From Candidatus Limnocylindria bacterium (GTDB lineage: Bacteria; Chloroflexota; Limnocylindria; QHBO01): 64,000 nt of DNA. The position numbers and the translations under genes were made by a program. The notes beneath the pieces were generated by a model. The model saw nothing but the letters and a program-made list of their open reading frames with translations, did no database searches and was not told the DNA's origin. The stretch spans positions 1,514 through 65,513 of the forward strand of contig JBBQXD010000012.1 in the NCBI GenBank assembly GCA_038209995.1, in the 5' to 3' direction. Positions 6,025 through 54,885 of the stretch are shown piece after piece (the first letter of the stretch is position 1; the number at the start of each line of letters is the position of its first letter).

Positions 6025-6161
6025 GATTCAGCTCCTTCGGTTGTGACCGGACGGATGTCCGATCTGCGGCCCCAGCCTGGCTCATGCACGTCAGACATCA
6101 GTAAGTCAGACTGGCGTCCCGATTCACCTTGCATTCATATTGCGGCTGCATCGTTGGTCCC

Positions 6162-6848: not shown

Positions 6849-6860
6849 TCCCACGGCGCG

Positions 6861-8201: not shown

Positions 8202-8251
8202 CCGGGCATCGCCACGGCGATGGGGCGCGCGGTCGGGGAGGCCGCCGCGCC

Positions 8252-40334: not shown

Positions 40335-40532
40335 ATGCTTCCCATTGTTCAGGCGTACATCAGCAATCTTCTCGCCAAGTTCCGGAGTGACGATGAGGAG
40401 GGTCAGACGCTCGTCGAGTACGGTCTGCTCCTCGCCCTCATCGCGATCATCGTGATCGTCGCCCTGCTCTTCCTGGGCCCGATCGTCAGCCGCATCTTCC
40501 AGAACGTCGGCTCGAACCTGGCAGGCAGCTAG
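40335..40532 (+). CDS. flp: Flp-family type IVb pilin
   Basis: 65 aa. Leader, then the G/QTLVEYGLLLALIAIIVIVAL Flp motif (Gly cleavage site, conserved E-Y, hydrophobic helix). Confidence 0.85.
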   Translation: MLPIVQAYISNLLAKFRSDDEEGQTLVEYGLLLALIAIIVIVALLFLGPIVSRIFQNVGSNLAGS

Positions 40533-40772: not shown

Positions 40773-41651
40773 GTGAAGCGATCCAATCGACTGATCATCC
40801 TCGTGGGCGTGCTGCTGGCCGTGCTCGCTTTCGTCGGCATCGTCGTCGTCCTGAATGGCCAGGGAGGCACGGGGCCCAGCAACCAGGCGCCCGTCGGCAA
40901 GATCCTGGTGGCCAAGGCCGCCATCGCCATCGGCGATCCAATCACCCCGGACAAGGTCCTGGTCAAGGACGTCGACCCGACCGCGGTCCCGCCGAACGCC
41001 CTCCATGACACGTCGGAGGTCGGTGGCCAGGCGGCACTCCTCAACGTCCCCGCCGGCAGCCAGGTGACGAAGGCCACCATCGGTACCGACAACACGGTGC
41101 CGGTCGACCTCAGCGCCGGCCTCAAGCCCGGCGAGCGCGCCGTCGGCTTCCAGGTCGACCGCGTCACCGGACTCGACTTCCTCGTGCAGCCGGGCGACTA
41201 CGTCGACGTCGTCCTGCAGCAGCGCATCAACGTGCTGCAGCGCACCACCGACTCCGCCGCGGACCCGAACTCGCCCGCGCGTTTCGAGACCATCCCGGGG
41301 CTCGAATCGTCCCGAACGGTCAAGACGGTGCTCCAGAACCGCCGCGTCCTCTACGTGAGCGCGCAGCGCACGGCCCAGCCGCAGACCGTCGAGGGTCAGG
41401 CGCAGCCGTCGCAGGCGCCCGCCGCGATCGAGAACGTGATCATCGTGTTCGCCGGCTCCGACCAGGACGCCGAGGTCATCAAGTTCGTCCAGAACAACGT
41501 GGGCGAGATCGGTGACCTGACGGCCATCGTGCGCAGCGGCGCGGACAGCGAGGCACCGGCCGTGACGACCAAGGGCGTCACCATCGACCTGCTCATCAGC
41601 CAGTTCGGTGTGCCGATTCCCGACATCGTCCAGAAGCTGAAGACCCCCTAG
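40773..41651 (+). CDS. cpaB: Flp pilus assembly protein CpaB/RcpC-like
   Basis: N-terminal anchor MKRSNRLIILVGVLLAVLAFVGIVVVL. SAF-like segment ILVAKAAIAIGDPITPDKV. Its position directly after flp is typical. Confidence 0.8.
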   Translation: MKRSNRLIILVGVLLAVLAFVGIVVVLNGQGGTGPSNQAPVGKILVAKAAIAIGDPITPDKVLVKDVDPTAVPPNALHDTSEVGGQAALLNVPAGSQVTKATIGTDNTVPVDLSAGLKPGERAVGFQVDRVTGLDFLVQPGDYVDVVLQQRINVLQRTTDSAADPNSPARFETIPGLESSRTVKTVLQNRRVLYVSAQRTAQPQTVEGQAQPSQAPAAIENVIIVFAGSDQDAEVIKFVQNNVGEIGDLTAIVRSGADSEAPAVTTKGVTIDLLISQFGVPIPDIVQKLKTP

Positions 41652-41684
41652 CGACCGCGTGAGCGGCCAGCCGAGGAACCACCC

Positions 41685-42911
41685 GTGATCAAGGTCCTCA
41701 TCGTCGATGACATTCCCGAGACGCGCGACCACCTGGCGAAGCTCCTGGGCTTCGAGCAGGAGATCGACGTGGCGGGAAGCGCCGGCTCCGGCGAGGATGC
41801 GATTCGCATGGCGATGGAGCTCCGGCCCGATGTCCTCGTCATGGACATCAACATGCCGGGCATGGATGGCGTGGCAGCCGCCGAGATCATCTCGCAGCGT
41901 CTGCCCACCAGCCCGATCATCATGATGAGCGTCCACGGTGAGGCAGAGCAGCTCCGTCGAGCCATCGCGGCCGGCGCACGGGAGTTCCTCGTCAAGCCGT
42001 TCAGCGCGGATGAGTTCAGCACCACCATCAAGCGCGTCTACGAGCGGGAGCTCGGCCGCCGCGAGCAGCTCCAGGCGGTCATCCCCGCACCCGTCACCGG
42101 TGCCTCGGCACCGGAGACCGCGATGGAGGACCACCAGGTGGTGGCCATCTTCAGCCCCAAGGGCGGCGCCGGCCGCACCACGATCGCCACGAATGTCGCG
42201 CTTGCGCTTCAGCGCGAGACGGGCGGTCGGGTCTGCCTCGTCGATGCGAACCTCCAGTTCGGCGACGTCGGCGTGCTGCTGAACCTCAACCCGAAGAATC
42301 GGTCCGTCCTCGACGCGGTCGAGGGCGGTGAGCCCGACGCGGACCTCCTCAACTCGGTGGTCATCGACCACTCGACAGGGATCCGGGTCCTCCTCGCGCC
42401 GCCCTCACCCGAGGGCGCCGACCTCATCACCCCGGTCTACCTCCGCAAGATGCTCGACCTGCTGCGCCAGTCCCACGACTGGGTGGTGGTCGACCTGCCG
42501 CCGAGCCTGACCGATCACTCCCTGGGCGTCATGGATGCCGCGGACCAGATCGTCATCCTGGCGGCGCTCGAGATCACGACCATCAAGAACGTCCGCCTCT
42601 TCCTCGAGGTGGCCGACCAGCTCGAGTACGACCGCAGCAAGCTGCGGCTCGTCATCAACCGATCCGACTCGTCGCAGGGAATCCGCATCTCCGACGTCGA
42701 GGCGTCCATCCGCCGACCCATCGATGGAACGGTCGTTTCCGATGGTCGCCTCGCCGTGCTGGCGGTGAACCGCGGCGTGCCATTTGTCGTATCCCATCCC
42801 GACGCCGCGCTCTCGCGCGATATCACCCGGCTCGCTCGCACTCTCGCCGGTGAGCCCGAAACCGCCAATGCCACGGAGAAGCCCCGCAAGGGCCTCTTCG
42901 CCCGCCGTTAA
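41685..42911 (+). CDS. cpaE: CpaE/TadZ-like ParA/MinD-family ATPase with N-terminal receiver domain
   Basis: Receiver: VLIVDDIPETRDHL, DVLVMDINMPGMDG, VKPF. Deviant Walker A: FSPKGGAGRTTIATNVALAL. Confidence 0.85.
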   Translation: MIKVLIVDDIPETRDHLAKLLGFEQEIDVAGSAGSGEDAIRMAMELRPDVLVMDINMPGMDGVAAAEIISQRLPTSPIIMMSVHGEAEQLRRAIAAGAREFLVKPFSADEFSTTIKRVYERELGRREQLQAVIPAPVTGASAPETAMEDHQVVAIFSPKGGAGRTTIATNVALALQRETGGRVCLVDANLQFGDVGVLLNLNPKNRSVLDAVEGGEPDADLLNSVVIDHSTGIRVLLAPPSPEGADLITPVYLRKMLDLLRQSHDWVVVDLPPSLTDHSLGVMDAADQIVILAALEITTIKNVRLFLEVADQLEYDRSKLRLVINRSDSSQGIRISDVEASIRRPIDGTVVSDGRLAVLAVNRGVPFVVSHPDAALSRDITRLARTLAGEPETANATEKPRKGLFARR

Positions 42912-42931
42912 GGGGAAGGACCGCCGCCACC

Positions 42932-44398
42932 ATGTCATTGCTCAAGAGGATCGAGCGGGCTCGGCCCGCAGAGGGGACCACCGAGACTCCGAACACGCCG
43001 TCCGTTCCCGCACCGGCCGGCCCTACGCCCCCTGCTCCGCAGGCAAGCGCGTCGGCGTCCATCGCCCCCGCCACCCCTCCGAGCTCGCCGACCCATGCGG
43101 GCGGCGCCGGGCGCGCGTTCCTCGGCTCACTCCCCGCGCGCGAGTCGTTCCGGGAGGCGAAGTACCGCGTCCAGAACCGGCTCATCAACGAGCTGGACCC
43201 CAAGCTCGACCTCACGAACCAGGTCGAGGTGCGGCGCCAGATCGAGCAGCTGTTCGGCAAGATCGCCGACGAGGAGGGGCTCGCCCTGACGCGCGCCGAG
43301 CGCGTGCGGATGCTCGAGCAGATCACCGACGAGATCCTCGGCCTCGGGCCGCTCGAGCCGCTCCTGCGGGACGAGACGATCACCGAGGTGATGGTCAACG
43401 GGCCGCAGCAGGTCTACATCGAGCGCGAGGGGCGCCTGGAGCTCACGAACGTGACGTTCCAGAACGACGAGCACGTGATGAAGATCATCCAGCGCATCAT
43501 CGCGCCGATCGGCCGCCGCGTGGACGAGTCGAGCCCGATGGTCGATGCCCGGCTGGCCGATGGCTCCCGCGTCAACGCCATCATCCCGCCGCTGAGCCTC
43601 GTCGGGCCGGTCATCACCATCCGGAAGTTCTCCGCCACGCCGTTCACGGTCGAGGATCTCGTCCGCTTCGGGACGGCGACCCCGGAGATGTTCGAGTTCC
43701 TCGAGGCCTGCGTGCAGGCCCGCCTCAACATCTTCGTCTCCGGCGGCACCGGCTCCGGCAAGACCACGATGCTCAACATCCTCTCGTCGTTCATCCCCGA
43801 CGACGAGCGGATCGTGACCATCGAGGACGCGGCCGAGCTCCAGCTCCGCCAGGAGCACGTGGTGACGCTCGAGGCGCGACCATCGAACATCGAGGGCAAG
43901 GGCGCCATCCCGATCCGCGAGCTTGTGCGCAACGCGCTGCGCATGCGCCCCGATCGCATCATCGTCGGTGAGTGCCGCTCGGGCGAGGCGCTGGACATGC
44001 TACAGGCCATGAACACCGGCCACGACGGCAGCATGAGCACCGGCCACGCCAACGCCCCGCGCGACATGCTCAGCCGCCTCGAGACGATGGTGCTCATGGC
44101 GGGCATGGACCTGCCTCTGCGCGCCATCCGCGAGCAGATCTCCTCGGCGGTCGACCTGATCGTCCATCAGAATCGTCTGAAGGACGGTACGCGCAAGATC
44201 ACGAACATCACCGAGGTGCAGGGCATGGAGGGGGACGTCATCGTCATGCAGGACATCTTCGTGTTCGAGCAGACGGGCGTCATCGAGGGCAAGATCCAGG
44301 GCCGGCTGCGACCGACCGGGATCCGGCCAAAGTTCGTCGAGAAGTTCGAGACGTCGGGCATCCACCTGCCGCCGAACGTCTTCGGCTCACCGTTCTAG
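42932..44398 (+). CDS. cpaF: CpaF/TadA secretion ATPase
   Basis: Walker A VSGGTGSGKTTMLN, IVTIEDAAEL, RPDRIIVGECRSGEALDMLQAMNTGHDGSMSTGHAN. Confidence 0.95.
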   Translation: MSLLKRIERARPAEGTTETPNTPSVPAPAGPTPPAPQASASASIAPATPPSSPTHAGGAGRAFLGSLPARESFREAKYRVQNRLINELDPKLDLTNQVEVRRQIEQLFGKIADEEGLALTRAERVRMLEQITDEILGLGPLEPLLRDETITEVMVNGPQQVYIEREGRLELTNVTFQNDEHVMKIIQRIIAPIGRRVDESSPMVDARLADGSRVNAIIPPLSLVGPVITIRKFSATPFTVEDLVRFGTATPEMFEFLEACVQARLNIFVSGGTGSGKTTMLNILSSFIPDDERIVTIEDAAELQLRQEHVVTLEARPSNIEGKGAIPIRELVRNALRMRPDRIIVGECRSGEALDMLQAMNTGHDGSMSTGHANAPRDMLSRLETMVLMAGMDLPLRAIREQISSAVDLIVHQNRLKDGTRKITNITEVQGMEGDVIVMQDIFVFEQTGVIEGKIQGRLRPTGIRPKFVEKFETSGIHLPPNVFGSPF

Positions 44399-44414
44399 GA
44401 GCGAGAGGACACCG

Positions 44415-45398
44415 ATGCCGATCATCATCGCGGCCGTCGCCGCGCTCGCGGTCCTGATCATCGCGGTCGGCGTCGCCATGTCCGGTGGCGGCAGCGGCTC
44501 GGTGGCCACCCGGCTCGAGCGGTACGCCTCGGCACAGGGCGACCTGCCCACCGACGAGGGAATCCGCGAGTCCGCCATCGTCGGCGGCCTGTCGCGGGTC
44601 ATCGAGGGGCAGGACTTCAACACCCGCCTCTCCACGGAGCTGGCGCGCGCCGACCTCAAGCTGCGGCCCGCCGAGTTCCTCCTCTTCTGGGGGATCTCTC
44701 CCGTCCTGTTCGTGGCCGCCGCCTACATGTTCGGCATCGTCTTCTCCGGCCTGCAGAACCCGGTCGCCCTCACGGGCGCCGCGATCCTGGGCCTCTACTT
44801 CCCGCGCTTCTACCTCAAGCGCCGCCAGGGCAAGCGCCTCCAGGCCTTCAAGGATCAGCTGCCTGACACGATCACCCTACTCGCCAACTCGCTGCGCGCC
44901 GGCTCCTCGTTCCTCCAGGGCATCGAGCTGGTCACTCGCGAGGCCCAGCCGCCGATCGGCGTCGAGTTCGAGCGGGTCGTCCGCGAGATGAGCCTCGGCA
45001 TGGCGCTCCAGCCTGCCCTGAACAACCTCGCGCGCCGCGTGGCGAGCGAGGATCTCGAGCTCATGGTCACCGCCATCAACATCCAGTCGCAGGTCGGCGG
45101 CAACCTCGCCACCATCCTCGACTCGATCGCGTTCACGATCCGTGAGCGAATCAGGATCCAGGGTGAGATCCAGACCCTGACCGCCATGCAGCGCTACAGT
45201 GGCTACGTCATCACGCTGCTGCCGGTCGGCCTTGCCGGTCTCCTGTTCCTCATCAGCCCCACCTACATCAGCGCCATGCTCAACAATCCGCCGGGCCTGT
45301 TCGGATTGCCGATGGGCGTCATCTTCTTCGCCATCGGCCTCATCAGCATGGGCTTCGGGTACCTCTTCATCCGCCGCATCGTCGACATCAAGGTCTGA
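44415..45398 (+). CDS. tadB: TadB-like (T2SS F-domain) inner-membrane platform protein
   Basis: T2SSF pattern: FKDQLPDTITLLANSLRAGSSFLQGIELV...QVGGNLATILD, with flanking TM helices. Confidence 0.85.
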   Translation: MPIIIAAVAALAVLIIAVGVAMSGGGSGSVATRLERYASAQGDLPTDEGIRESAIVGGLSRVIEGQDFNTRLSTELARADLKLRPAEFLLFWGISPVLFVAAAYMFGIVFSGLQNPVALTGAAILGLYFPRFYLKRRQGKRLQAFKDQLPDTITLLANSLRAGSSFLQGIELVTREAQPPIGVEFERVVREMSLGMALQPALNNLARRVASEDLELMVTAINIQSQVGGNLATILDSIAFTIRERIRIQGEIQTLTAMQRYSGYVITLLPVGLAGLLFLISPTYISAMLNNPPGLFGLPMGVIFFAIGLISMGFGYLFIRRIVDIKV

Positions 45399-45403
45399 TC
45401 GCC

Positions 45404-46324
45404 ATGCAACCAGAGATTCTCATCGCCGTCGTGGCGGCGCTCGCCGTCCTCCTCATCACCTTCGGCCTGGCCTGGGCGCCGGGCCAGGATGCCGTGCAGC
45501 AGCGGCTGAGCGCGCTCGTCGTCCAACCGAAGACGCTGGAGGAGTACGAGCTCCAGCAGCCGTTCTATGAGCGCACCGTTCGACCGCTCATCAAGCGCCT
45601 CTCGAGGTTCGGGCGCCGGGCCGACCAGGGCGGCGTCATCGCGCGCACCGATGCCAAGCTCGAGCAGGCCGGCTACCCGGGCGGGCTCCGCGGCGCGGAC
45701 TGGATGGGGGTCAAGATCCTGTCGGGGATCGCGTTCGCCATCATCGTCTTCCTGCTCGGCACCCTGCTCCTCCAGGAGCCTGCGATCGGCATCCTCCTCG
45801 GACTGCTCGGCATCGGCATCGGATTCGTCGCGCCGGAGTTCTGGCTCGGCCGCCGCATCCGGGCGCGGGCCGAAGCCATGATCCTGCAGCTCCCGGACGC
45901 GCTCGACCTGCTGACGATCTCGGTGGAGGCAGGGCTCGGCTTCGATGCCGCGCTCGCCAAGGTGGTCGAGAAGATGAACGGGCCGCTGGTGGACGAGTTC
46001 CGCCAGGCGCTCGCCGAGGTGCGCATGGGTCGCACCCGCCGCGAGGCGCTGCGCGACATCGTCAAGCGTGCCGACGCACCGCCCATTTCGAACTTCATCG
46101 GCGCCATCGTGCAGGCCGAGCAGCTCGGTGTGCCGATCGCGAAGGTGCTCCAGATCCAGTCGCAGCAGCTCCGCATCCTGCGCCGCCAGCGTGCCGAGGA
46201 GGCGGCGGCGAAGGCCCCGGTGAAGATGCTCTTCCCGATGGTCGGCTGCATCTTCCCCACGATCTTCATCGTCATCCTCGGTCCCGCGGTCGTGACCGTC
46301 ATGGGAGGCGGCACGGGGCTGTAG
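45404..46324 (+). CDS. tadC: TadC-like (T2SS F-domain) inner-membrane platform protein
   Basis: QLPDALDLLTISVEAGLGFDAALAKV...QAEQLGVPIAKVL, with TM helices at both ends. Confidence 0.85.
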   Translation: MQPEILIAVVAALAVLLITFGLAWAPGQDAVQQRLSALVVQPKTLEEYELQQPFYERTVRPLIKRLSRFGRRADQGGVIARTDAKLEQAGYPGGLRGADWMGVKILSGIAFAIIVFLLGTLLLQEPAIGILLGLLGIGIGFVAPEFWLGRRIRARAEAMILQLPDALDLLTISVEAGLGFDAALAKVVEKMNGPLVDEFRQALAEVRMGRTRREALRDIVKRADAPPISNFIGAIVQAEQLGVPIAKVLQIQSQQLRILRRQRAEEAAAKAPVKMLFPMVGCIFPTIFIVILGPAVVTVMGGGTGL

Positions 46325-46334: not shown

Positions 46335-47033
46335 ATGAGCAACCGCCTCCGACCCTCCCTCCTCGTCGTCGACGACGACACGACCCTGCTGTCGGTCGTG
46401 GCGCGACGACTGATCCGGGAGGGCTACGAGGTCAGAACGGCTGGGTCCGGTACCGGCGCGCTCGCCGCCATGGAGCGCGGCTGGCCGGACCTGCTGATCA
46501 TCGATCTCATGATGCCCGGCATGGATGGCTTCGAGCTGGCACGTCGGGTGAAGCGGCTGGCGGATCTCCCGATCATCGTCCTATCCGCCGTCGACGCCTC
46601 GGAGGCGAAGGTCGCCGCGCTCCAGCAATACGCAGAGGATTATGTCACCAAGCCCTTCGACGCCGAGGAGCTGGTGGCTCGGGTAGAGCGCGTCCTCAAG
46701 CGCTCCGCGGGCGGCACCGCATCGATCACGCTCGGCGACGGCGAGGTGGAGATCGACCTCGCCATGAAGCGCCTGACGACGCCCGGCGGCAGCCACGTCC
46801 TCACCCCGATCGAGACCCGGCTGCTCCAGATGTTCATCGGCTCCCCCGACCGCATCATTCCCACCGAGAGCATCCTGGACCGGGTCTGGTCGGAGGCGGA
46901 CGGCGCGGACCCGTCGTACGTGTGGGTCACGATCCGGCGGTTGCGGCGCAAGCTCGAGCCGGATCCGGACCGGCCCCGATTCCTTCTGACCGAGCGCGGC
47001 ATCGGCTACCGACTCAGCTCGACCGGACGCTGA
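46335..47033 (+). CDS. OmpR-family response regulator (within the tad operon)
   Basis: LLVVDDDTTLL, DLLIIDLMMPGMDGF, TKPFDAEELVARV, TERGIGYRL. Starts 11 nt after tadC. Confidence 0.9.
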   Translation: MSNRLRPSLLVVDDDTTLLSVVARRLIREGYEVRTAGSGTGALAAMERGWPDLLIIDLMMPGMDGFELARRVKRLADLPIIVLSAVDASEAKVAALQQYAEDYVTKPFDAEELVARVERVLKRSAGGTASITLGDGEVEIDLAMKRLTTPGGSHVLTPIETRLLQMFIGSPDRIIPTESILDRVWSEADGADPSYVWVTIRRLRRKLEPDPDRPRFLLTERGIGYRLSSTGR

Positions 47034-47036
47034 AGC

Positions 47037-48521
47037 ATGGGACGCCGCGGGGCGCAGCTCTTCTGGCTGATGCTGGCGGTGGCACTGCCCCCGCTCGTGG
47101 CGCTGGCAATCGTCGAGGTGGCCGGTCGAGATGTGGTGGCCAGCCTTGGTCCGGGGACCTCGCTGGCCATCGCCGCGGGCCTGACCGTCGTGTGGGCCGG
47201 CATCGTCACGGTTATGGGTTCGCGGCTGCTGGACATCGACGCTCGCGGCATGCTGGAGGTCGCCGAACGCGGCGAGCCGGCGGCCGCTGAGCGGCAACTG
47301 GTCGAGGCCGGTGGTGAGGTACGGCGTCGCCTCTCCGCTGCGCTCGACGAGCGGAATCGTCAGATCGCCGAGTTGGCGAGGCAGGCGAGGCAAGCACCGA
47401 TCAACCAGGATGCCGCCACGGTGGCGCACGTGATGGCCGCTGCCGCGCGGTCGATCGCCGGGGACGAAACCTGGACGATCGCCATCATGCGTGCCGCCGA
47501 ACCCGAGTCCCTGGCAGGCGTGTACGGCGCTGCGCCAGACGAGGTGACGGCCATCGAGGAGGTGCATCGCTGGGCCTCGACACTCGAAGCCGAGCCGGGC
47601 GACGTGGCCCCCGTTCGGTATGGCACCGGCCCCTGGGGGGCGTTCGTGGCGGTCGAGGTGGCGCGCTCGGACGAAATCCAGGCAGTGCTCATGGCCCCGT
47701 GGGAGGGCCGGCCGGCGCCCACACCGGCCGAACGCGAACTCCTGGGCCTGGTCGGGCAGCACGCGGGCATGGCACTCGAGCATGCGCTCATCTATGCGCG
47801 CGTTCGCCGGCAGGCCGAGGAGCTGGATCGACTGGCGACGGTCCAGGCCGACTTCCTGCGAGCCGTGAGCCACGACCTCCAGTCGCCCCTGACGAGCATC
47901 CGCGCGCTGGCCGCGGAGGTCGCTGCGTCGCCGGCGCTCGATCCCGCGGCCCGTGACGATCTCGGCGCCATGGTGCACCAGGCGGACCGCCTCGGGCGCA
48001 TGGTCGTCCAGCTCCTGACCATGTCGCGTCTCGAGGCGGGGGTCCTGACTCCGGCGAGCGAGGTCTTCCGCGTGGAGCCGATCATCGAGCGGACCTGGAA
48101 GGCGCTCCGCATCGATCGGCCGTTCACCCTCCGTACAGAGAGCGGGCAGTACCTCGCCGTGGGCGATGCCGATCGATTCGAGCAGGCCCTGTGGGCCATC
48201 CTCGGCAACGCGGTCAAGTATTCGCCTGATGCCTCCCCGATCTCGGTGACGGTCGCGCCGGTCTCGCCCGAGCTGCTGGCGGTGGCGGTCACCGACGCAG
48301 GACGTGGCATGAGCCCGGAGACACAGGCTCGGGCCTTCGACCAGTTCTTCCGTTCGACCGATGCTCGCGCCGCGGTGCCGGATGGGAGTGGCATCGGGCT
48401 CTACACGGCGCGTGGGCTCCTGCGCGCTATGGGCGGCGACGTGACCGTGAGCAGCCGTTTGGCTGGAGGCACGACGTTGACAGTCCTGCTGCCTGCAGAG
48501 GCTACCCGGGACCCCGAGTAA
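47037..48521 (+). CDS. sensor histidine kinase with membrane anchor and GAF-like middle domain
   Basis: H-box FLRAVSHDLQSPLTSI, DAGRGMS, GSGIGLYTARGLLRAMGGDV. ~200 aa lie between the TM region and the H-box. Confidence 0.85.
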   Translation: MGRRGAQLFWLMLAVALPPLVALAIVEVAGRDVVASLGPGTSLAIAAGLTVVWAGIVTVMGSRLLDIDARGMLEVAERGEPAAAERQLVEAGGEVRRRLSAALDERNRQIAELARQARQAPINQDAATVAHVMAAAARSIAGDETWTIAIMRAAEPESLAGVYGAAPDEVTAIEEVHRWASTLEAEPGDVAPVRYGTGPWGAFVAVEVARSDEIQAVLMAPWEGRPAPTPAERELLGLVGQHAGMALEHALIYARVRRQAEELDRLATVQADFLRAVSHDLQSPLTSIRALAAEVAASPALDPAARDDLGAMVHQADRLGRMVVQLLTMSRLEAGVLTPASEVFRVEPIIERTWKALRIDRPFTLRTESGQYLAVGDADRFEQALWAILGNAVKYSPDASPISVTVAPVSPELLAVAVTDAGRGMSPETQARAFDQFFRSTDARAAVPDGSGIGLYTARGLLRAMGGDVTVSSRLAGGTTLTVLLPAEATRDPE

Positions 48522-48553: not shown

Positions 48554-49618
48554 CTACCTGACCAGCTGAATCGAGACGGGCGACACCCCCGCGGGAAGGG
48601 GCGGCTGGCCATCGGGCGACGTGAAGATGCCCGATCGCCAAATGCCCTCGATGTCCTTGCCGCCCTTGCACTTGGTGATCTCGAGTCCGGCGAAGCCAAC
48701 GATGTGATAGGCGGCGTTAGAACCGTTGCCCGTTGCGTAGTCCCAGACGGGAACGGTCACGATGACGTGGTTGTTGATGTACCAGTCGCAGTCGGCGCTT
48801 GCCGTGTTGCCTGGCAGACTGCCGATAAGATCCGCACTGCCGGTTATCCCAACACGGGTACAGCAGCCGTAGCTGTTGCCTGGGGGCGTGTTCGCTCCGT
48901 TGTCATGACCGATCTCGTCCTGGAGGAATCCGGCGTTGTTATCGCATCCACCGGCCGACCCTTGACCGAGGCCATAGCCAGAGCACCCGAACTTCAGCCA
49001 CGACTTTGCACCCGGACGATTGTTGCCGCCGTCGGTGAACGCGGTGGTCTGGCAGCCAGCGGCCGGCGTCTGGAAGGGGCAGAGGACCATGTGACCCGGC
49101 AGTGATTGATCGAAGCTCGCAGCCGAGATGCCTGCCGGAAACACGCCGGCTCGAGGCGGTGCTTGGTTGCGCACCCCGCGGGCAGTGGCCACTGCTGTTG
49201 TGCTCCACGTGTTCATCCCGATGATGCGGGCAACGAACGGAGTCCATGAGCGCGAGGTTGGGACCTGGACGCCTGCGGCGACGGCTGGAACACTGCCACT
49301 GCCGACGAATGTCAAGGCGGCGCCGGCCTTGTCGACGTATTGAGGACCGGAGGAACCGAATGTGACGGTTCCGCGGTTGCTCTGCACCGTCGCGAGGATG
49401 GCACTTCGAACGCTGGAATCGGTGGCTCCGACGCTGATCGCTCGGGCGCCGGCGAGCGCGCCGAGGTCCGCGGCGTTCTGCGCGGCTCGCCGCTGGCCGA
49501 AGCCGTAGCCGCCATCGATGACGAGCCCAGCCAGGAAGAGCAGACCGATCAGCAGGAATGGAAAGATGATGATGATCTGGCCGCGGTTGATTCGTCGTTC
49601 TCCAAGTGTGACAACCAT
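48554..49618 (-). CDS. TadG-like (Tad_N domain) putative minor pilin / pilus-associated protein
   Basis: NRGQIIIIFPFLLIGLLFLAGLVIDGGYGFGQRRAAQNAADLGALAGAR matches the TadG N-terminal pattern. The rest is a Gly/Cys-rich extracellular region. Confidence 0.75.
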   Translation of the reverse strand: MVVTLGERRINRGQIIIIFPFLLIGLLFLAGLVIDGGYGFGQRRAAQNAADLGALAGARAISVGATDSSVRSAILATVQSNRGTVTFGSSGPQYVDKAGAALTFVGSGSVPAVAAGVQVPTSRSWTPFVARIIGMNTWSTTAVATARGVRNQAPPRAGVFPAGISAASFDQSLPGHMVLCPFQTPAAGCQTTAFTDGGNNRPGAKSWLKFGCSGYGLGQGSAGGCDNNAGFLQDEIGHDNGANTPPGNSYGCCTRVGITGSADLIGSLPGNTASADCDWYINNHVIVTVPVWDYATGNGSNAAYHIVGFAGLEITKCKGGKDIEGIWRSGIFTSPDGQPPLPAGVSPVSIQLVR

Positions 49619-49628: not shown

Positions 49629-50156
49629 TCAGTTGATCACCATTGTTGCCACGCCCTGGCGGTCGATGGGGCCGATGATCTCCGTGAGGATCGGCGTGAT
49701 AGATGAATAGGTGAATCGGATGCGAATCGAGACAACGTTGCCGAGTGCTCCGCTCGAGCAGGACACCAGAGGCGCCTTCGCATCCCATGCTGCGACGCTC
49801 GTCGGCTGGCTGCCCAAGGCGTCACAACTCATCGAGACAGTCGTGATCGTCCCGCCAAGACCGCTGGTCATCCGGTTTGCGGCCGCCTGGGCATCCGTGG
49901 CAACGAGCGCCGCCGACGCTCTGCAGACCGGCCCTCCGGCCGCGTTGCAGCCGGGGTCGTCACTGGTGGTCTTCCCGATCCAGCTCGCCTCAACGGCTGC
50001 GACACGAGCGGCTTCCCTGGCTGCCTGGGACAGGACGCTGTCCGTGAATACGTACCGCGCCCCGTCAATCAACACAAACACGAACAGGAGGAAGATCGGG
50101 AGCACAAAGGCGAACTCCACCAGACTCTGGCCGCGCGTCTCATGCCTGATGTTCAT
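49629..50156 (-). CDS. TadE-like pseudopilin
   Basis: MNIRHETRGQSLVEFAFVLPIFLLFVFVLIDGARY. ATGA overlap with the upstream gene. Confidence 0.75.
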   Translation of the reverse strand: MNIRHETRGQSLVEFAFVLPIFLLFVFVLIDGARYVFTDSVLSQAAREAARVAAVEASWIGKTTSDDPGCNAAGGPVCRASAALVATDAQAAANRMTSGLGGTITTVSMSCDALGSQPTSVAAWDAKAPLVSCSSGALGNVVSIRIRFTYSSITPILTEIIGPIDRQGVATMVIN

Positions 50157-50797
50157 CGTGAAGGCCGATAGTGGAAGGTCACGGGCGTGGTGCTGGCATT
50201 CACGCAGCTGCCTGCGCTGGGCGTTTGAGGAGACACGACCTGGTTCTTCGTGCCTGTCGTGAGATCGTCGATGCCATTGGGTACAAGACCTGCCGCTTCC
50301 ACCGCGGCTATCGCCTGATCTCGCGTCATGTTGACCACGTTCGGAACGGTCGCGCACGCCGGCGGGCTCGCCGGAAGTCCAGCCGCGCCCAGCGAAACCG
50401 AGGTGGCCGATGCGGTTATGGTGAGGTTACCGACGATGCCTCCGACCGCCGGCGTCAGGAAAGTGAACGGCTCCGAGACCGTGACCAACACGTTGTGCGG
50501 TGTTGCGGCGGTATACGCGGTGGCGCAATCACCCGGGGAGCAGACGACCGTGACTGCGAGCGCAGCCTCTCCCGTCTGCCATTGCACGTTCGTCTCTTGC
50601 CCGGCTCGCGCCCTGATGCCGGCGGCATCGTTGGGATGCGCGATGGCATACGCCGCTCCCTCGCGGGCGGCATTGTTGATCTGGATATATGAGAACAGCA
50701 CGCGCCCGAAATCGGCCGCAACAAGAAAGACCAGGATCAATACGGGCGCGAGGATCGCGAACTCCACCAATGACTGCCCTCGCCTGGAGCGTGACAT
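50153..50797 (-). CDS. TadE-like pseudopilin with C-terminal PASTA-like domain
   Basis: N-terminus MSRSRRGQSLVEFAILAPVLILVFLVAADFGR. C-terminus VPNVVNMTRDQAIAAVEAAGLVPNGIDDLTTGTKNQVVSPQTPSAGSCVNASTTPVTFHY follows the PASTA consensus (VPdvvG...A...L...GL......G.V..Q.P.aG..v....V.l). Confidence 0.7.
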   Translation of the reverse strand: MSRSRRGQSLVEFAILAPVLILVFLVAADFGRVLFSYIQINNAAREGAAYAIAHPNDAAGIRARAGQETNVQWQTGEAALAVTVVCSPGDCATAYTAATPHNVLVTVSEPFTFLTPAVGGIVGNLTITASATSVSLGAAGLPASPPACATVPNVVNMTRDQAIAAVEAAGLVPNGIDDLTTGTKNQVVSPQTPSAGSCVNASTTPVTFHYRPSR

Positions 50798-51013: not shown

Positions 51014-51397
51014 GTGAGTACCATCAGGATCGAGATGACCCTTGCCGCTCTCCACAACCGTACCGGCGCAACGACCCTCGCAACGAGATGCCGTGTGGCG
51101 ACCTCTCTTCGTGACCGCACCGTGGGTCTGCTCGGCCGGTCGCACCTCGACGAGGGTGAAGGGCTGTACATCGAGCGCTCCCCGTCCATCCACATGTTCT
51201 TCATGCGCTTCCCGATCGATGCGGTATTCGTTGCCCCGGGCGGACGCGTGACGAAGATCGTGGAGAACCTGAAGCCGTGGCGGCTGGTGCTCTGGGCGCG
51301 TGGCGCCCGGGACTGCATCGAGCTTCCCGTGGGAGCTGTGGCCGCCTCCAACACGCAGGTCGGCGACGTGCTCGAGGTCGTGCCAGCCACCTCCTGA
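51014..51397 (+). CDS. DUF192-family protein
   Basis: RTVGLLGRSHLDEGEGLYIERSPSIHMFFMRFPIDAVFV...ELPVG matches the DUF192 (COG1430) pattern. Confidence 0.7.
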   Translation: MSTIRIEMTLAALHNRTGATTLATRCRVATSLRDRTVGLLGRSHLDEGEGLYIERSPSIHMFFMRFPIDAVFVAPGGRVTKIVENLKPWRLVLWARGARDCIELPVGAVAASNTQVGDVLEVVPATS

Positions 51398-51467
51398 GGG
51401 CGGCCGCGAGGTACGAACGTACTGCGCTCGTACCCCCAACCTGGCAAGGGACATCGCAAGGTTGCCG

Positions 51468-52094
51468 ATGCACCCTGCGGTCATGCATCACCTCCGATGG
51501 CCGCGACGACCCGCGACGAGCCCCGCCGAGTCCGGCCAGGCGCTCGTCGAGTTCGCGCTCATCTTCCCCATCTTCATGCTGCTGGTCATCGGGATGATCG
51601 AGTTCGCGGTCGCCTTCGGCGTCCAGCTGAACATCAACTACGCCAGCCGCGACGCGGCCCTGCTCGCCGCCGAGGCGGGGAACGGCCAGGGCGCGGACTG
51701 CGTGATTCTCGCGAACATCGAATCCACCGTCTCCAGCCCGAGCAATAAGACCGCCATCTCCCAGGTCCGGGTCTACTGGTCCGATGGGAACGGCGTCGAG
51801 AAGCCCGGCAGGGTCAACGTCTACACGCGGTCGAGCAGCACCTCCTGCACCCTCCAGGACGGCACCGTCCTGACGGTTCCCTACTCGATCAGCGGCATCC
51901 CCGGCTACCCGGAGACCGACCGATGCGCCGTTCTCGCCGGATGCCCCGGCGGCCATCCCAGCGTCGACCAGATCGGCGTCACGATCACCTATCAGCACCG
52001 CTGGATGACGCCCCTTCCGTCGATCGTCACCCTGCCCGTCGGTGGCGTGACCGTCACCCGCAGCAATGCCATGCGCATGGAGCCGATCCTGTGA
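51468..52094 (+). CDS. TadE-like pseudopilin
   Basis: ESGQALVEFALIFPIFMLLVIGMIEFAVAF. Start ATG at 51468 or 51483. Confidence 0.75.
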   Translation: MHPAVMHHLRWPRRPATSPAESGQALVEFALIFPIFMLLVIGMIEFAVAFGVQLNINYASRDAALLAAEAGNGQGADCVILANIESTVSSPSNKTAISQVRVYWSDGNGVEKPGRVNVYTRSSSTSCTLQDGTVLTVPYSISGIPGYPETDRCAVLAGCPGGHPSVDQIGVTITYQHRWMTPLPSIVTLPVGGVTVTRSNAMRMEPIL

Positions 52095-52699
52095 TCCGCC
52101 TGCGCGGCCTCCGCCGCCGAACATCTCGCGGCCAGTCGATGGTGGAGATGGCCCTCCTCCTTCCGGTGCTGCTGACCATCGTGGCCGGCACCCTCGAGTT
52201 CGGCTTCGCGTTCGATCATCACCTCACCCTCCAGTACGCGTCGCGCGAGGGCGCGCGGGTGGGGTCGGCCATGGTCAACGGCGGCGGGACTCTCGGCTGC
52301 GGGGGAGGGCAGAGTCCGAATGCCGCCGTCGTGGACCAGACCATCGTGGCCGCCGTCGAGCGGGTTTTGGCCAGCACCAGCTCGCCGATCGCCCTGAACC
52401 GCGTGAGCGAGATCAGGATCTACAAGTCCAACGCCAATGGCGGCGAGGTGGGTCCGGTGAATAGCTGGATCTATGCCGCAGGCGGCGGTCCCGTCGTGGA
52501 CGGCAAGGCCCTTGACTTCAAGACGACGGCCCCACAGACCTGGAGCGCGTGCTCCCGCGTCAACGGGGTGACACCTGACTCGATCGGCGTGAGCGTCGCC
52601 TACACCTACGACCTCCGCACCCCGCTGAAGGCCCTCTTCGCGTGGGCAACCATCGGGATGGGCGATCACACCGTCATGTCGATGAATCCGACCAACTGA
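52091..52699 (+). CDS. TadE-like pseudopilin
   Basis: SRGQSMVEMALLLPVLLTIVAGTLEFGFAF. The GTG start overlaps the previous stop (GTGA). Confidence 0.75.
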   Translation: MIRLRGLRRRTSRGQSMVEMALLLPVLLTIVAGTLEFGFAFDHHLTLQYASREGARVGSAMVNGGGTLGCGGGQSPNAAVVDQTIVAAVERVLASTSSPIALNRVSEIRIYKSNANGGEVGPVNSWIYAAGGGPVVDGKALDFKTTAPQTWSACSRVNGVTPDSIGVSVAYTYDLRTPLKALFAWATIGMGDHTVMSMNPTN

Positions 52700-54885
52700 T
52701 GAGGCCTGAGATCATGTCGCGCTCCCCGAGCTGCGCCACCACGTCACTTTCCACCCAGGACGAAGCCCCGAGCCTGGCGCGCGACGCATCGAGGGGAGCG
52801 CCGCGCGGCCAGATTCTTCTCATCTTCGCTTCGATGCTCGTGCTTCTCCTCACCGTCTCCGCGCTCGCGGTCGACCTCGGGTGGCTGTGGACGAACGCCC
52901 TGCGCGTGCAGCGCGCCGCGGACGCGGCGGCCCTGGCCGGCGTGGTCCACCTTCCCGGCGACATCCCGGGCGCCTATTCGACGGCCCGCGGCGAGGCCCA
53001 GAAGAACGGCTACGTCGACGGGACGGGCGGGATCACCGTGACCCCGGTCAAGGACCTGGCCCTGCCGCGTCGGCTCGACGTCACTGTTCAGGCGCCGGTG
53101 CGCACCTTTTTCCTGGGCCTGATCGGCATGCCGACCATCAACATCACCCGCATCGCGCAGGCTGACTACGTGCTGCCGGTACCGATGGGCAGCCCGCAGA
53201 ACTACTACGGCGTCGGCGACTTCCGGAAGGTGGCGGCCGGCGCGACGTCCAACACCGGCACGATCGCTCCGACCGGTTCGGATGCGTCGGGAACGCAATG
53301 GACAAATCCGTCCAACGCCTACGCGAGTGGCGGCGGTGTCGCGACGGTCGTCGGCTCCAATAAGACGCACATCTTCAAGAACTTCAACTTCAGCGTCCCC
53401 GCCGGCAACTCGATTCTCGGAATCGAGGTGAAGTTCAGGGCCACGTCGACCGCCACGAACTGCCAGATGGGCATCGAGCTCAGCGACAACGGTGGCTCGA
53501 CGTGGACGACCCAGCAGAAGACCGCCGCCAACGTCGACGGCTCGCTCACGACCTACACGCTCGGCAGCTCGGTCGACCTGTGGGGAGGCACGTGGGCCCA
53601 GACCGACTTCACGAACGCCAACTTCCGGCTGCGCGTCCAGAGCCTGGATCCCGGCAGCAACTGCGCCGACACAGATACCTGGTCGCTCGACTTCGTGAAC
53701 GCGAACGTGTTCTCGCAGGCGCCGGCCGCTGACACGATCCAGGAGGTCACCGGACCGTCCGGCCCGCTGTGCACGCCCGTGCCGCCGCGTACGTCCTGCA
53801 GCCAGGGCTTCTGGGGCGCGGTGTTCACCAAGGGCGGCGTCCGGCAGAACGGCGACCGCTATGCACCCGCCAACTGGTCGGGTGGCAGCTCGGCCGCGAA
53901 CCCCGACTACGACAGCAACGGCTACGACTACAGCGTCGAGGTGGGTTCCAGCGGCGAGGTATGGCTCTACGACCCCACGTTCTGTGGAACGGGGCAGACC
54001 GCGTTCGGAGGCTGGTACGGGGCCGGCGATCACTGGACCAGCCTTCCCAAGCCGCCAGGCGGGACCGGGTATGGAGCAGTCACCACTCGGTATCGGCTCT
54101 ATGACACCCGCGGCACCGACTACAGCCTGGGCGACGACGTCCTCGTCCCCGGTGCCGATTCGGGAGCGCTGTTCGCGAACAAGTTCCAGACCGATCAGAG
54201 CGGCACCTTCGGGTCGCCCCAGAAGACGGCCGCCGACGGGGCCGCGAACTGCGCCAGCGATCCGTACCACAACGGGTGGTACCGCATCGCGAGCGGGATC
54301 GCCTCCGGCAAGTATCGGCTCAACGTGAACACCAGCGACCCGGCGAACAACAGCGTGGCCGCCGAGAACCTGTTCTCGATCTACACCAATTCGGCTGGCA
54401 AGCCCCGTGTCTACGGTGGCGGACGGATGGCCGCCTACACGAATTTGGCGGCCGGCACGCAGACGTTCTACCTGGCCCAGATCGGCCCGGAGCACGCCGG
54501 CAAGACGATGGACATCACGCTCTTCGACCCCGGCGACGTCCAAGGCCCAGCGTTCCTCCGCATCCTCTCGCCGGACGGCAACGCCTACAACTACGCGACC
54601 TTCTCGTATTCCGCTGACGCGCAGTGCAGCGGTTCGAGCGACGCGTGCAGCGCCTCGGGGCGCACGCAGATCGAGACGAACAACGGCGGAAGCAGCGCGT
54701 TCGATAATTCCGTGCTCGTGATCAACATTCCGCTGCCCACGACGTACGGCAGCGTTGGCCTGACGCCCGCCGGCGAGACCGAGGCCGGATGGTGGAAGAT
54801 CGAGTACGAGGTCGCCGGCGGCAACGACACCACGACGTGGGAGGTCAGCATCCGCGGCAACCCGGTCCGGCTCGTCGTCCCGTAG
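52699..54885 (+). CDS. large TadG-like protein (Tad_N N-terminus plus ~600-aa extracellular region; candidate tip adhesin)
   Basis: PRGQILLIFASMLVLLLTVSALAVDLGWLWTNALRVQRAADAAALAG...TVQAPVRTFFLGLIGMPTINI. Start overlaps the previous stop (TGATG). The long C-terminal region is rich in Gly/Thr/Ser/Asn. Confidence 0.8.
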   Translation: MRPEIMSRSPSCATTSLSTQDEAPSLARDASRGAPRGQILLIFASMLVLLLTVSALAVDLGWLWTNALRVQRAADAAALAGVVHLPGDIPGAYSTARGEAQKNGYVDGTGGITVTPVKDLALPRRLDVTVQAPVRTFFLGLIGMPTINITRIAQADYVLPVPMGSPQNYYGVGDFRKVAAGATSNTGTIAPTGSDASGTQWTNPSNAYASGGGVATVVGSNKTHIFKNFNFSVPAGNSILGIEVKFRATSTATNCQMGIELSDNGGSTWTTQQKTAANVDGSLTTYTLGSSVDLWGGTWAQTDFTNANFRLRVQSLDPGSNCADTDTWSLDFVNANVFSQAPAADTIQEVTGPSGPLCTPVPPRTSCSQGFWGAVFTKGGVRQNGDRYAPANWSGGSSAANPDYDSNGYDYSVEVGSSGEVWLYDPTFCGTGQTAFGGWYGAGDHWTSLPKPPGGTGYGAVTTRYRLYDTRGTDYSLGDDVLVPGADSGALFANKFQTDQSGTFGSPQKTAADGAANCASDPYHNGWYRIASGIASGKYRLNVNTSDPANNSVAAENLFSIYTNSAGKPRVYGGGRMAAYTNLAAGTQTFYLAQIGPEHAGKTMDITLFDPGDVQGPAFLRILSPDGNAYNYATFSYSADAQCSGSSDACSASGRTQIETNNGGSSAFDNSVLVINIPLPTTYGSVGLTPAGETEAGWWKIEYEVAGGNDTTTWEVSIRGNPVRLVVP

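What the first reader, a model, noticed from the sequence alone, without database searches (positions are those of the whole stretch)
50168..50347. PASTA-like domain fused to a TadE-like pseudopilin
The 214-aa protein at 50153-50797 starts with a typical TadE prepilin N-terminus. It ends with VPNVVNMTRDQAIAAVEAAGLVPNGIDDLTTGTKNQVVSPQTPSAGSCVNASTTPVTFHY, which tracks the PASTA consensus (VPxVVG, A..L...GL, G.V..Q.P.AG..V....V.L). PASTA domains are known from PBP2x-type penicillin-binding proteins and PknB-type kinases, where they are implicated in binding peptidoglycan fragments. I am not aware of a PASTA module on a pilus subunit. It could tether or guide the Tad fibre through the cell wall, or sense muropeptides.
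Basis: partly seen in the sequence, partly recalled or inferred. Interest (0 to 1): 0.65.

Follow-up and report, generated by a model that had tools for sequence, protein, structure and literature searches.

The report
Tad minor pilin carrying PASTA domain
A small pilus subunit of an uncultured soil bacterium (Candidatus Limnocylindria, Chloroflexota) really does end in a PASTA domain, a module otherwise known from cell-wall enzymes and kinases. Related bacteria carry other modules, mostly PKD domains, at the same position, so it is most likely one of several exchangeable binding heads shown at the pilus tip.

Summary
The 214-aa protein at 50153-50797 (-) has a TadE prepilin N-terminus (Pfam 53.3 bits) and one genuine C-terminal PASTA domain (31.9 bits, cut-off 23.2). 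In the AlphaFold2 model the tail superposes on PASTA units of PknB, StkP and PBP1.

The fusion is not unique. It belongs to a family of TadE minor pilins in Candidatus Limnocylindria (Chloroflexota) MAGs. In this family a conserved pilin core carries a variable tail.

The gene opens a three-gene operon (modular TadE, TadE, TadG-like) that recurs in about 30 of 48 species loci. Across those loci the tail is usually two PKD domains. Less often it is this PASTA type ("A") or a diverged PASTA-like type ("B"), in one to three copies. The same type-A tail also sits on unrelated pilin cores, so the module has been shuffled.

A second TadE/TadE/TadG triplet lies divergently next to it, beside a full flp-cpaB-tadZ-tadA-tadB-tadC locus. 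The genome has no secretin.

This matches the published picture of modular pilins and interchangeable Tad "Tip" complexes. The PASTA is most likely a tip-displayed binding module. Its ligand is untested; peptidoglycan is a guess. I rate it a new variant of a known kind, of moderate interest.

The parts
50153..50797 (-). Gene for the 214-aa TadE-PASTA minor pilin, stop codon included.
   Evidence: Translation. Pfam TadE and PASTA. Homologues.
50777..50797 (-). Predicted leader peptide MSRSRRG. Cleavage is predicted after G7 (G|QSLVEF, Glu at +5).
   Evidence: Read from the sequence. The same G-Q junction occurs in Flp (EEG|QTLVEY) and in the other TadE/TadG proteins of the window. An A24 prepilin peptidase is present elsewhere in the genome. 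Cleavage itself is inferred.
50654..50779 (-). TadE domain (residues 7-48), the hydrophobic alpha-1 helix of the pilin.
   Evidence: Pfam PF07811, 53.3 bits. The model shows a helix at 6-53.
50378..50653 (-). Globular pilin core (residues 49-140). It is a small beta sheet with a Cys86/Cys91 pair; Cys86 is nearly invariant across homologues.
   Evidence: AF2 model strands at 81-87, 101-111 and 125-135. Conservation.
50357..50377 (-). Short Ala/Pro-rich linker (residues 141-147). In homologues it is often expanded to long Pro/Thr/Ser runs.
   Evidence: pLDDT falls to about 64 here. Alignment gaps and insertions.
50162..50356 (-). PASTA domain (residues 148-212). Cys148 and Cys198 are invariant across type-A tails. 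The DLTTGxKN loop and the C-terminal YHYRP are also conserved.
   Evidence: Pfam 31.9 bits. Foldseek PASTA hits. Profile hit to PknB. Tail alignment A3. A disulfide between the two Cys is inferred, not shown.
49629..50159 (-). Second TadE minor pilin (176 aa) of the same operon. Its ATG overlaps the stop of the PASTA pilin (ATGA).
   Evidence: Pfam TadE 57.6 bits. Overlap seen. An ortholog lies directly downstream in about 31 loci.
48554..49618 (-). TadG-like large minor pilin (354 aa), third gene of the operon.
   Evidence: Pfam Tad PF13400, 45.5 bits. Orthologs follow TadE2 in about 30 loci. The AF2 model is poor, pLDDT 57.5.
51014..51397 (+). DUF192 protein at the head of the divergent second minor-pilin operon.
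   Evidence: Pfam PF02643, 62.9 bits.
51459..52094 (+). TadE minor pilin of the second triplet. The start codon is approximate.
   Evidence: Pfam TadE 49.3 bits. Leader motif.
52133..52699 (+). TadE minor pilin of the second triplet. The start codon is approximate.
   Evidence: Pfam TadE 53.3 bits. Leader motif.
52642..54885 (+). Large TadG-like minor pilin (up to 747 aa) of the second triplet. The start codon is approximate.
   Evidence: Pfam Tad 32.3 bits. An 86%-identical ortholog sits in the same divergent position in L024.
40335..40532 (+). Flp major pilin (65 aa, G|QTLVEY).
   Evidence: Pfam Flp_Fap 30.7 bits, just under the cut-off of 32.2. Sequence.
40773..46324 (+). Tad machinery genes: cpaB/rcpC, receiver-tadZ/cpaE, tadA/cpaF, tadB and tadC.
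   Evidence: Pfam RcpC, Response_reg+AAA_31/ParA, T2SSE and T2SSF twice.
46335..48521 (+). OmpR-type response regulator and histidine kinase, placed between tadC and the minor-pilin genes.
   Evidence: Pfam hits.

Best explanation
The protein is a modular TadE-family minor pilin of a monoderm-type Chloroflexota Tad (Flp) pilus. After the prepilin peptidase removes a 7-residue leader, the N-terminal helix and the small beta core would insert like any pilin.

The protein probably joins the next two gene products (a plain TadE and a TadG-like large pilin) in the complex that primes Flp polymerisation. That complex then stays at the distal tip.

A short flexible linker holds a single C-terminal PASTA domain, probably stapled by a disulfide, outside the pilin bundle. 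The domain would therefore be displayed at the pilus tip as a ligand-binding head.

The head is an exchangeable cassette. Orthologous operons in related species carry two PKD domains, a diverged PASTA-like module, or one to three PASTA-like repeats in the same place. A second TadE/TadE/TadG triplet next door would give an alternative tip. Given what PASTA domains bind elsewhere, the most plausible target is a peptidoglycan-type ligand on exposed cell walls of kin or other bacteria.

Shown here: domain identity, fold, family distribution, conserved operon, module shuffling.
Inferred: leader cleavage, heterotrimer formation, tip location, disulfide, ligand.
For: Identity and fold:
- Pfam finds TadE and PASTA, both above cut-off.
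- The AF2 model shows a pilin helix, a beta core, a lower-confidence linker and a confident PASTA-type tail.
- The top 20 Foldseek PDB hits are all PASTA units. The tail profile hits PknB at E 8e-12.

Exchangeable tail:
- Among 47 species loci plus the query, 47 proteins match TadE, 20 match PKD and 3 match Pfam PASTA. DUF5979, Big_13 and CarboxypepD_reg each occur once.
- Type-B tails relate to type-A tails at hhalign probability 95.8%, E 8e-9.
- Core and tail identities to the query are discordant. P0162, P0164 and P0242 have cores at 34-37% but tails at 60-64%. P0014, P0016 and P0017 have cores at 55-58% but tails at about 30% or a PKD tail. P0251 has a Flp-like leader with the same tail at 50%.
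- Tandem forms exist: P0272 (type B then type A), P0330 and P0313 (three modules each).

Conserved triplet:
- TadE2 and TadG1 orthologs lie directly downstream of the modular TadE in about 30 of 48 loci, whatever the tail type.
- The PASTA pilin's stop overlaps the next start as ATGA.
- The divergent second triplet is conserved in L024 and L001.

Machinery:
- The flp-cpaB-tadZ-tadA-tadB-tadC genes are adjacent.
- An A24 peptidase is present in the genome. No secretin is found in a 95%-complete genome.

Published framework:
- TadE/F/G-like minor pilins are predicted to form heterotrimeric Tip complexes that expose variable domains. Paralogous triplets act as interchangeable tips and prime pilus extension in Myxococcus (PMC12075869).
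Against:
- In the Myxococcus and pathogen models the large TadG/KilN subunit is described as the one carrying the main modular domain. Here the module is on a small TadE.
- No ligand was tested. Some PASTA domains mediate protein-protein contacts rather than peptidoglycan binding, for example B. subtilis PBP2B with DivIB (PMC7654742).
- PKD and PASTA could both be passive spacers.
- Before extension, the tip complex sits in the membrane with the PASTA in the wall zone, so contact with the cell's own wall cannot be excluded.
- The organism is uncultured, and expression was not examined.
Confidence: 0.55

Rival explanations
1. Engagement of the cell's own wall. The PASTA domain binds the cell's own peptidoglycan or lipid II while the priming complex sits in the membrane. 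It would position the assembly site at zones of wall synthesis, guide the nascent fibre through the thick wall of a monoderm, or anchor the pilin at the base.
For: - PASTA domains of PrkC/PknB-type kinases bind peptidoglycan fragments (PMC5786024 abstract).
- The genome lacks a secretin, so the wall is the barrier a pilus must cross.
- The same genome uses PASTA on two Ser/Thr kinases, so a PASTA ligand is likely present in its envelope.
Against: - Orthologous operons work with PKD or other Ig-like tails instead. A wall-transit role would be expected to be conserved, not swapped.
- 279 of 301 genomes of the class have a TadE of this subfamily. At least 38 of them have a match that runs through the PASTA(-like) tail; this is a lower bound from the listed matches.
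- The second triplet in the same locus has no such tail.
- The tail sits on a flexible linker at the pilin C-terminus, which points outward in assembled filaments (PMC8179133).
Confidence: 0.18
2. Structural or protein-protein module. The PASTA and PKD tails have no external ligand. They would stabilise the minor-pilin complex, contact the TadG-like partner, act as a spacer, or act as a stopper that limits retraction.
For: - PASTA domains can act through protein contacts (PBP2B-DivIB, PMC7654742).
- The nearest non-pilin relatives of the tail are proteins built of 5 to 29 tandem PASTA units, where the domain looks like a generic extracellular building block.
- PKD domains are also common spacers.
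Against: - Type-A tails keep a strongly conserved loop (DLTTGxKN) and a C-terminal YHYRP beyond the structural PASTA signature. This suggests a functional surface.
- The same tail is found on several unrelated pilin cores, including a Flp-like one. That is hard to reconcile with a co-evolved contact to one partner.
Confidence: 0.2
3. Muropeptide sensor. The pilin-borne PASTA detects wall fragments and passes the signal to the adjacent two-component system or to the receiver domain on TadZ, which control piliation.
For: - A response regulator and histidine kinase lie between tadC and the minor-pilin genes, and TadZ carries a receiver domain.
- PASTA kinases sense muropeptides (PMC5786024).
Against: - The pilin has no cytoplasmic output domain.
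- Nothing links it to the kinase.
- The tail is replaced by PKD in most orthologs while the regulators were not examined for co-variation.
Confidence: 0.05

Closest known systems
Modular type IV pilins, such as Streptococcus sanguinis PilB (vWA module) and PilC (lectin module) (Raynaud et al. 2021, PMC8179133)
   Same: A small pilin module is joined by a short linker to an independently folding C-terminal module. The module is thought to be presented at the filament tip to bind ligands. Many architectures exist across bacteria.
   Different: Those pilins carry the IPR012902 N-methylation-type leader of type IVa/b and Com systems. This one is a TadE (PF07811) pseudopilin of a type IVc (Tad/Flp) system. 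The module here is PASTA, and no function has been tested.
Tad 'Tip' complexes of Myxococcus xanthus (KilL/KilM/KilN, four paralogous triplets) and TadE/F/G of other bacteria (Herrou et al. 2025, PMC12075869)
   Same: Triplets of TadE-, TadF- and TadG-like minor pilins are encoded together. There is more than one triplet per Tad system. Variable modular domains are proposed to be exposed at the pilus extremity.
   Different: In the published models the large TadG/KilN subunit is described as the backbone and carries a C-terminal modular domain. Here a small TadE carries a recognisable domain. The host is a monoderm-type Chloroflexota without a secretin. There is no evidence for predation.
PASTA domains of PknB/PrkC/StkP kinases and PBP2x/PBP1/PonA2
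   Same: The sequence signature (VPxVxG, A..L..aG, Q.P.aG..V) and the one-helix-plus-beta-strands fold are shared. Location is extracytoplasmic.
   Different: The domain is not attached to a kinase or a transpeptidase. There is a single copy. It is bracketed by a conserved Cys pair and has a family-specific loop and C-terminus. Sequence identity to solved PASTA units is only 20-27%.
TadE/TadF pseudopilins of Aggregatibacter actinomycetemcomitans
   Same: The TadE N-terminal domain, the G/xxxxE(F/Y) processing motif, and a location in a tad locus with flp, tadA, tadB, tadC and tadZ are shared.
   Different: The classical TadE and TadF proteins, as I recall, are small and lack an added recognisable domain.

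Membership tests
PASTA domain (Pfam PF03793) | Profile HMM score above the curated gathering threshold | tested here: met
   31.9 bits in the whole protein and 35.5 bits for the tail alone, against a cut-off of 23.2.
PASTA domain (Pfam PF03793) | Small globular fold of one alpha helix packed against a beta sheet, superposable on solved PASTA units | tested here: met
   The AF2 tail has pLDDT 72-91. Foldseek matches include 3ouv (TM 0.75), 5e0y (TM 0.67, rmsd 2.6 A) and 7o4c (rmsd 2.0 A). The top 20 hits are all PASTA.
PASTA domain (Pfam PF03793) | Extracytoplasmic location | tested here: inconclusive
   Inferred from its position C-terminal to a prepilin leader and helix, and from the conserved Cys pair. 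No experimental topology is available.
PASTA domain (Pfam PF03793) | Binding of peptidoglycan fragments, lipid II or beta-lactams (shown only for some members) | not testable with these tools
   Requires recombinant protein and binding assays.
TadE-family pseudopilin (Pfam PF07811) | TadE N-terminal domain above threshold | tested here: met
   53.3 bits against a cut-off of 22.9, residues 7-48.
TadE-family pseudopilin (Pfam PF07811) | Prepilin processing motif G/xxxxE(F/Y) followed by a hydrophobic helix | tested here: met
   RRG|QSLVEFAILAPVLILVFLV. The same junction occurs in Flp and in the other five TadE/TadG proteins of the window.
TadE-family pseudopilin (Pfam PF07811) | Encoded with Tad machinery genes, and a prepilin peptidase is available | tested here: met
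   flp, cpaB, tadZ, tadA, tadB and tadC lie within 10 kb. An A24 peptidase is at contig C4:79186-79494.
TadE-family pseudopilin (Pfam PF07811) | Cleavage by the TadV-type peptidase and a requirement for piliation | not testable with these tools
   Needs genetics or biochemistry. The organism is uncultured.
Modular pilin (sensu Raynaud et al. 2021) | Pilin module plus a separate module of a family not specific to pilus biology, joined by a short linker | tested here: met
   The model shows two confident domains and a linker of lower pLDDT. The tail also occurs on other pilin cores and in non-pilin proteins.
Modular pilin (sensu Raynaud et al. 2021) | The module has a direct role in a pilus function and is presented by the filament | not testable with these tools
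   Requires labelling, microscopy and adhesion assays.
Tad Tip complex (sensu Herrou et al. 2025) | Co-encoded TadE-, TadF- and TadG-like triplet, with paralogous triplets per system | tested here: met
   There are two triplets in the window. The triplet order is conserved in about 30 loci.
Tad Tip complex (sensu Herrou et al. 2025) | Confidently predicted or demonstrated heterotrimer with a bundle of three alpha-1 helices | not tested
   Only single-chain prediction was available. The TadG-like partner alone modelled poorly, pLDDT 57.5.

The most novel reading that the evidence does not exclude
The PASTA head makes this Tad pilus a peptidoglycan-seeking grappling hook. A monoderm Chloroflexota would display a single disulfide-stapled PASTA domain at the pilus tip to latch onto exposed cell wall of kin (aggregation) or of other Gram-positive-type cells (epibiosis or predation). 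Swapping PASTA and PKD heads between species, and between the two tip triplets, would retarget the pilus. If so, it would be the first PASTA domain acting as an adhesin. It would also be a minimal stand-alone system for settling what PASTA domains actually bind.
Probability: 0.2. Interest if true: 0.65.

Novelty: new variant of a known kind. Interest (0 to 1): 0.4.

Why it matters
PASTA domains have been studied almost only as appendages of penicillin-binding proteins and PknB-type kinases, and what they bind is still debated. Here a single PASTA unit sits on a carrier with no enzymatic or signalling output. If it has a ligand, binding is its whole job, which makes it a clean case for testing PASTA ligand specificity.

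The finding also extends the 'modular pilin' and 'adaptable Tad tip' ideas to the small TadE subunit and to an abundant, uncultured, monoderm-type soil and freshwater lineage. It shows that tip heads (PKD, PASTA, PASTA-like repeats) are exchanged like cassettes within one conserved operon.

Practically, public gene calls truncate the leader and name these proteins only 'TadG', 'PKD repeat protein' or 'hypothetical', so the architecture is easy to miss.

Tried and rejected
- phmmer of the tail alone against PDB sequences found nothing at E<=1. Only the 15-sequence profile reached PknB.
- The region-restricted word-indexed homolog search (residues 145-214) returned only the window's own protein, so it was uninformative.
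- The AF2 model of the TadG-like partner (48554-49618) from a 15-sequence alignment had mean pLDDT 57.5. That is too poor for a fold search, so the nature of its Cys-rich C-terminal region stays open.
- NCBIfam gave only sub-threshold hits: PknB_PASTA_kin at 16.3 bits for the tail, and TadE_Rv3655c for neighbours.
- Literature searches for 'PASTA domain' with 'TadE' returned nothing. A search with PASTA, pilin, Tad pilus and Chloroflexi gave no relevant paper.
- I considered a chance match to low-complexity Ala/Gly/Pro sequence and rejected it. The match is above the gathering threshold, the fold is recovered independently, and the tail is conserved at 50-66% identity across homologues.
- I considered recent capture of the domain from the genome's own PASTA kinases (contigs C2 and C4) but did not test it by direct comparison. 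The nearest non-pilin relatives in the global search are multi-PASTA repeat proteins at 33-43% identity.
- I looked for other PASTA-like pilin tails in the window's own genome and found none. Same-genus genomes do have three-module versions.

Full report
**1. What is at the site**

Pfam finds TadE (PF07811) at residues 7-48, with 53.3 bits. It finds PASTA (PF03793) at residues 150-207, with 31.9 bits against a gathering cut-off of 23.2 and E 1.3e-7. The tail scanned alone scores 35.5 bits. Residues 150-207 correspond to window 50177-50350, which agrees with the reported 50168-50347.

The public gene call for this protein (P0002, 204 aa) starts at V11 and removes the prepilin motif. The ATG at 50797 restores RRG|QSLVEF, which every full-length homologue has. 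The stop of this gene overlaps the ATG of the next TadE gene as ATGA.

**2. Is the PASTA assignment real?**

Four independent lines say yes.

- A phmmer search of the 70-residue tail against 1.84 billion representative proteins returned 493 hits at E<=1e-3. The strongest are proteins with many matching stretches. Those I scanned are made of 5 to 15 Pfam PASTA units.
- A profile of 15 tails from homologues hits the PknB PASTA region (2kui) at E 8e-12. It also hits other PknB, S. aureus kinase and PBP1 PASTA entries.
- An AlphaFold2 model built on 23 homologues has mean pLDDT 84. It shows a long N-terminal helix (6-53), a small beta core, a linker of lower confidence (about 64) and a confident C-terminal unit. 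That unit has strand 148-150, helix 159-168 and strands at 172-177, 184-187, 198-200 and 205-212.
- A Foldseek search of the whole model against the PDB gave PASTA entries as the top 20 hits. They include PknB PASTA3 (3ouv, target TM 0.75), PknB PASTA4 (5e0y, TM 0.67, rmsd 2.6 A over 66 columns, 26% identity), S. aureus PBP1 (7o4c, rmsd 2.0 A) and StkP PASTA4 (5nod). E-values were 5e-3 to 1e-1 because the query was the whole two-domain model. The probabilities were mostly 0.84-1.00, lower for some full-length PBP2x entries.

The single-sequence search of the tail against PDB sequences found nothing, so the domain is a diverged PASTA.

**3. The family it belongs to**

Homologues come from MAGs labelled Candidatus Limnocylindria/Limnocylindrales, Chloroflexia or Chloroflexota. 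A few are labelled Thermoleophilia or Gaiellaceae.

The pilin core is well conserved, but the C-terminal extension varies. Among 47 species-level loci plus the query, 47 proteins match TadE. Twenty match PKD domains and three match Pfam PASTA. DUF5979, Big_13 and CarboxypepD_reg each occur once.

Reading the sequences shows two tail types that begin with a conserved Cys-x-VPN motif.

- Type A is this protein's type, with consensus CxxVPNVxG...A..AI.AAGLVPNG..DLTTGTKN.V..Q.P.AGTCV..GSTVTYHYRP.
- Type B has consensus CTVPNFVG...A...WT.AGF...NLTNN......QSL.AG....C...

Pfam does not detect type B. It matches type A by profile-profile comparison at 95.8% probability, E 8e-9. It also weakly matches the PonA2 PASTA domain, E 0.017.

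Forms with several modules exist. P0272 has type B followed by type A. P0330 and P0313 have three modules each. Two same-genus genomes have three-module versions.

In a sample of 301 genomes of the class, 279 have a TadE of this subfamily. At least 38 have a match that runs through the tail. This is a lower bound counted from the listed matches. Strong type-A orthologs are few: G029, G041, G212, the split G159 and the window's own genome.

In the protein database, at least 14 clusters carry precomputed TadE+PASTA. JGI names two of them 'beta-lactam-binding protein with PASTA domain'. The others are named TadG, PKD repeat protein or hypothetical.

**4. The tail is a shuffled cassette**

Identity to the query was computed separately for the core (residues 1-140) and the tail (residues 147-214).

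| Protein | Core identity | Tail identity |
|---|---|---|
| P0162 | 37% | 64% |
| P0164 | 34% | 60% |
| P0242 | 35% | 60% |
| P0251 (Flp-like leader plus a PKD domain; core not comparable) | - | 50% |
| P0014, P0016 | 55-56% | about 30% (type B) |
| P0017 | 58% | PKD tail instead |

The same tail therefore sits on different pilin cores, and the same core carries different tails.

**5. Genomic setting**

The gene is first in a three-gene operon on the minus strand: TadE-PASTA, then TadE (49629-50159), then a TadG-like protein (48554-49618).

tblastn with the second and third proteins finds their orthologs directly downstream of the modular TadE in about 30 of the 48 loci. This holds whether the first gene ends in PKD, type A or type B. 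Examples:

- L004 (PKD): 6001-7029, 7056-7532, 7574-8623.
- L005 (type B): 3242-3976, 3981-4490, 4525-5619.
- L001 (type A): 6001-6663, 6708-7184, 7213-8268.

A second set lies divergently: DUF192 (51014-51397), TadE, TadE and a TadG-like protein of up to 747 aa. This arrangement is conserved in L024 and L001.

Upstream on the plus strand are flp (40335-40532, G|QTLVEY), cpaB/rcpC, a receiver-tadZ fusion, tadA/cpaF, tadB and tadC, followed by an OmpR-type regulator and a histidine kinase.

The genome is 2.25 Mb and 95% complete. It has one A24 prepilin peptidase on another contig and no secretin. It has two PASTA Ser/Thr kinases and no other PASTA-like pilin tail.

**6. How it most likely works**

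Two published frameworks fit. Raynaud et al. (PMC8179133) defined modular pilins as a pilin module linked by a short loop to a functional module, probably tip-exposed. They found 264 architectures, searching only pilins with the IPR012902 leader. Herrou et al. (PMC12075869) showed that four paralogous KilL/M/N (TadE/F/G-like) triplets prime the Myxococcus Tad pilus. These triplets are modelled as interchangeable heterotrimeric Tips that expose variable domains. The authors propose that TadE/F/G in other bacteria do the same.

The window shows exactly such triplets. There are two of them, and a recognisable variable domain sits on the first TadE of one. I therefore read the PASTA as a tip-displayed binding head.

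The ligand is unknown. Peptidoglycan-type ligands are the obvious candidates by analogy with PrkC/PknB (PMC5786024). In a secretin-less, monoderm-type lineage, exposed wall would be an accessible target on kin or neighbours. This step is inference only. Other PASTA domains act through protein contacts (PMC7654742).

**7. Rivals**

It is not excluded. It is weakened because orthologous operons use PKD heads, and because the listed matches show the PASTA-type tail in only a minority of genomes of the class.
- A purely structural or partner-binding role is possible. The conserved family-specific loop (DLTTGxKN) and terminus (YHYRP), and the tail's occurrence on unrelated cores, argue for an autonomous functional surface.
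- A sensing role lacks any output path.

**8. Novelty and verdict**

The fusion is real, recurrent in one uncultured class and auto-annotated in a few database entries. It is absent from the searchable literature. The 2021 census lists one PASTA-containing architecture among IPR012902 pilins (the identity of IPR005543 as PASTA is from my memory).

Conceptually it is a new variant (PASTA head, carried by a small TadE, in a monoderm-type Chloroflexota) of known kinds (modular pilins, adaptable Tad tips). Interest is moderate. A specialist would find it neat rather than startling. It does offer a minimal system for asking what a stand-alone PASTA domain binds.

**9. What did not work**

- The TadG-like partner modelled poorly, pLDDT 57.5.
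- The region-restricted homolog search returned only the window's own protein.

Noticed in passing
window 50768-50797 (-): The public gene call for this protein (P0002, 204 aa) starts at V11. It removes the leader and the G|QSLVEF junction. Several homologues in the databases look truncated at the N-terminus in the same way (for example P0003 and P0006-P0008).
   Followed up: partly
L024 6001-6745 (also G159:C3:407631-408250): The closest ortholog (66% identity, probably the same genus, from a long-read MAG) is split by a frameshift near residue 75. Its tail is called separately as a 125-aa protein (P0009). This could be an assembly indel or a real pseudogene.
   Followed up: no
P0251, P0272, P0330, P0313; L052 7464-8576 (-); L053 2344-3456 (-): Other pilin architectures use the same cassette. 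Examples are a Flp-like leader plus PKD plus a type-A PASTA tail, a TadE with type B then type A, and TadE with three tandem PASTA-like modules each bracketed by Cys pairs. Two genomes of the window's own genus have the three-module form. The window's genome has none of these.
   Followed up: partly
P0122-P0134: The nearest non-pilin relatives of the tail are large proteins made almost entirely of PASTA repeats. They reach 29 matching stretches (P0124, 2161 aa) and 2633 aa in length (P0122). One (P0125) has 15 Pfam PASTA units plus DUF7927. Their function and organisms were not examined.
   Followed up: no
window 51014-51397 (+): A DUF192 (COG1430) protein heads the second minor-pilin operon, between the two divergent TadE sets.
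   Followed up: no
G000 contig C4: 75601-76947 (L051 602-1948) and 79186-79494 (L049): The genome's only A24 prepilin peptidase lies about 2.3 kb from a 448-aa Ser/Thr kinase with a single PASTA domain. It is far from the tad locus.
   Followed up: no
window 48554-49618 (-): The TadG-like partner has a strongly conserved Cys- and Gly-rich block (invariant C180, C189, C212, C225, C252-C253). Pfam does not assign it, and AlphaFold2 models it poorly (pLDDT below 50 over residues 210-262).
   Followed up: partly
window 52642-54885 (+): The second TadG-like protein (up to 747 aa) has about 600 residues with no Pfam assignment. It is 86% identical to its L024 ortholog and 67-69% identical to those in L006 and L007.
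   Followed up: no
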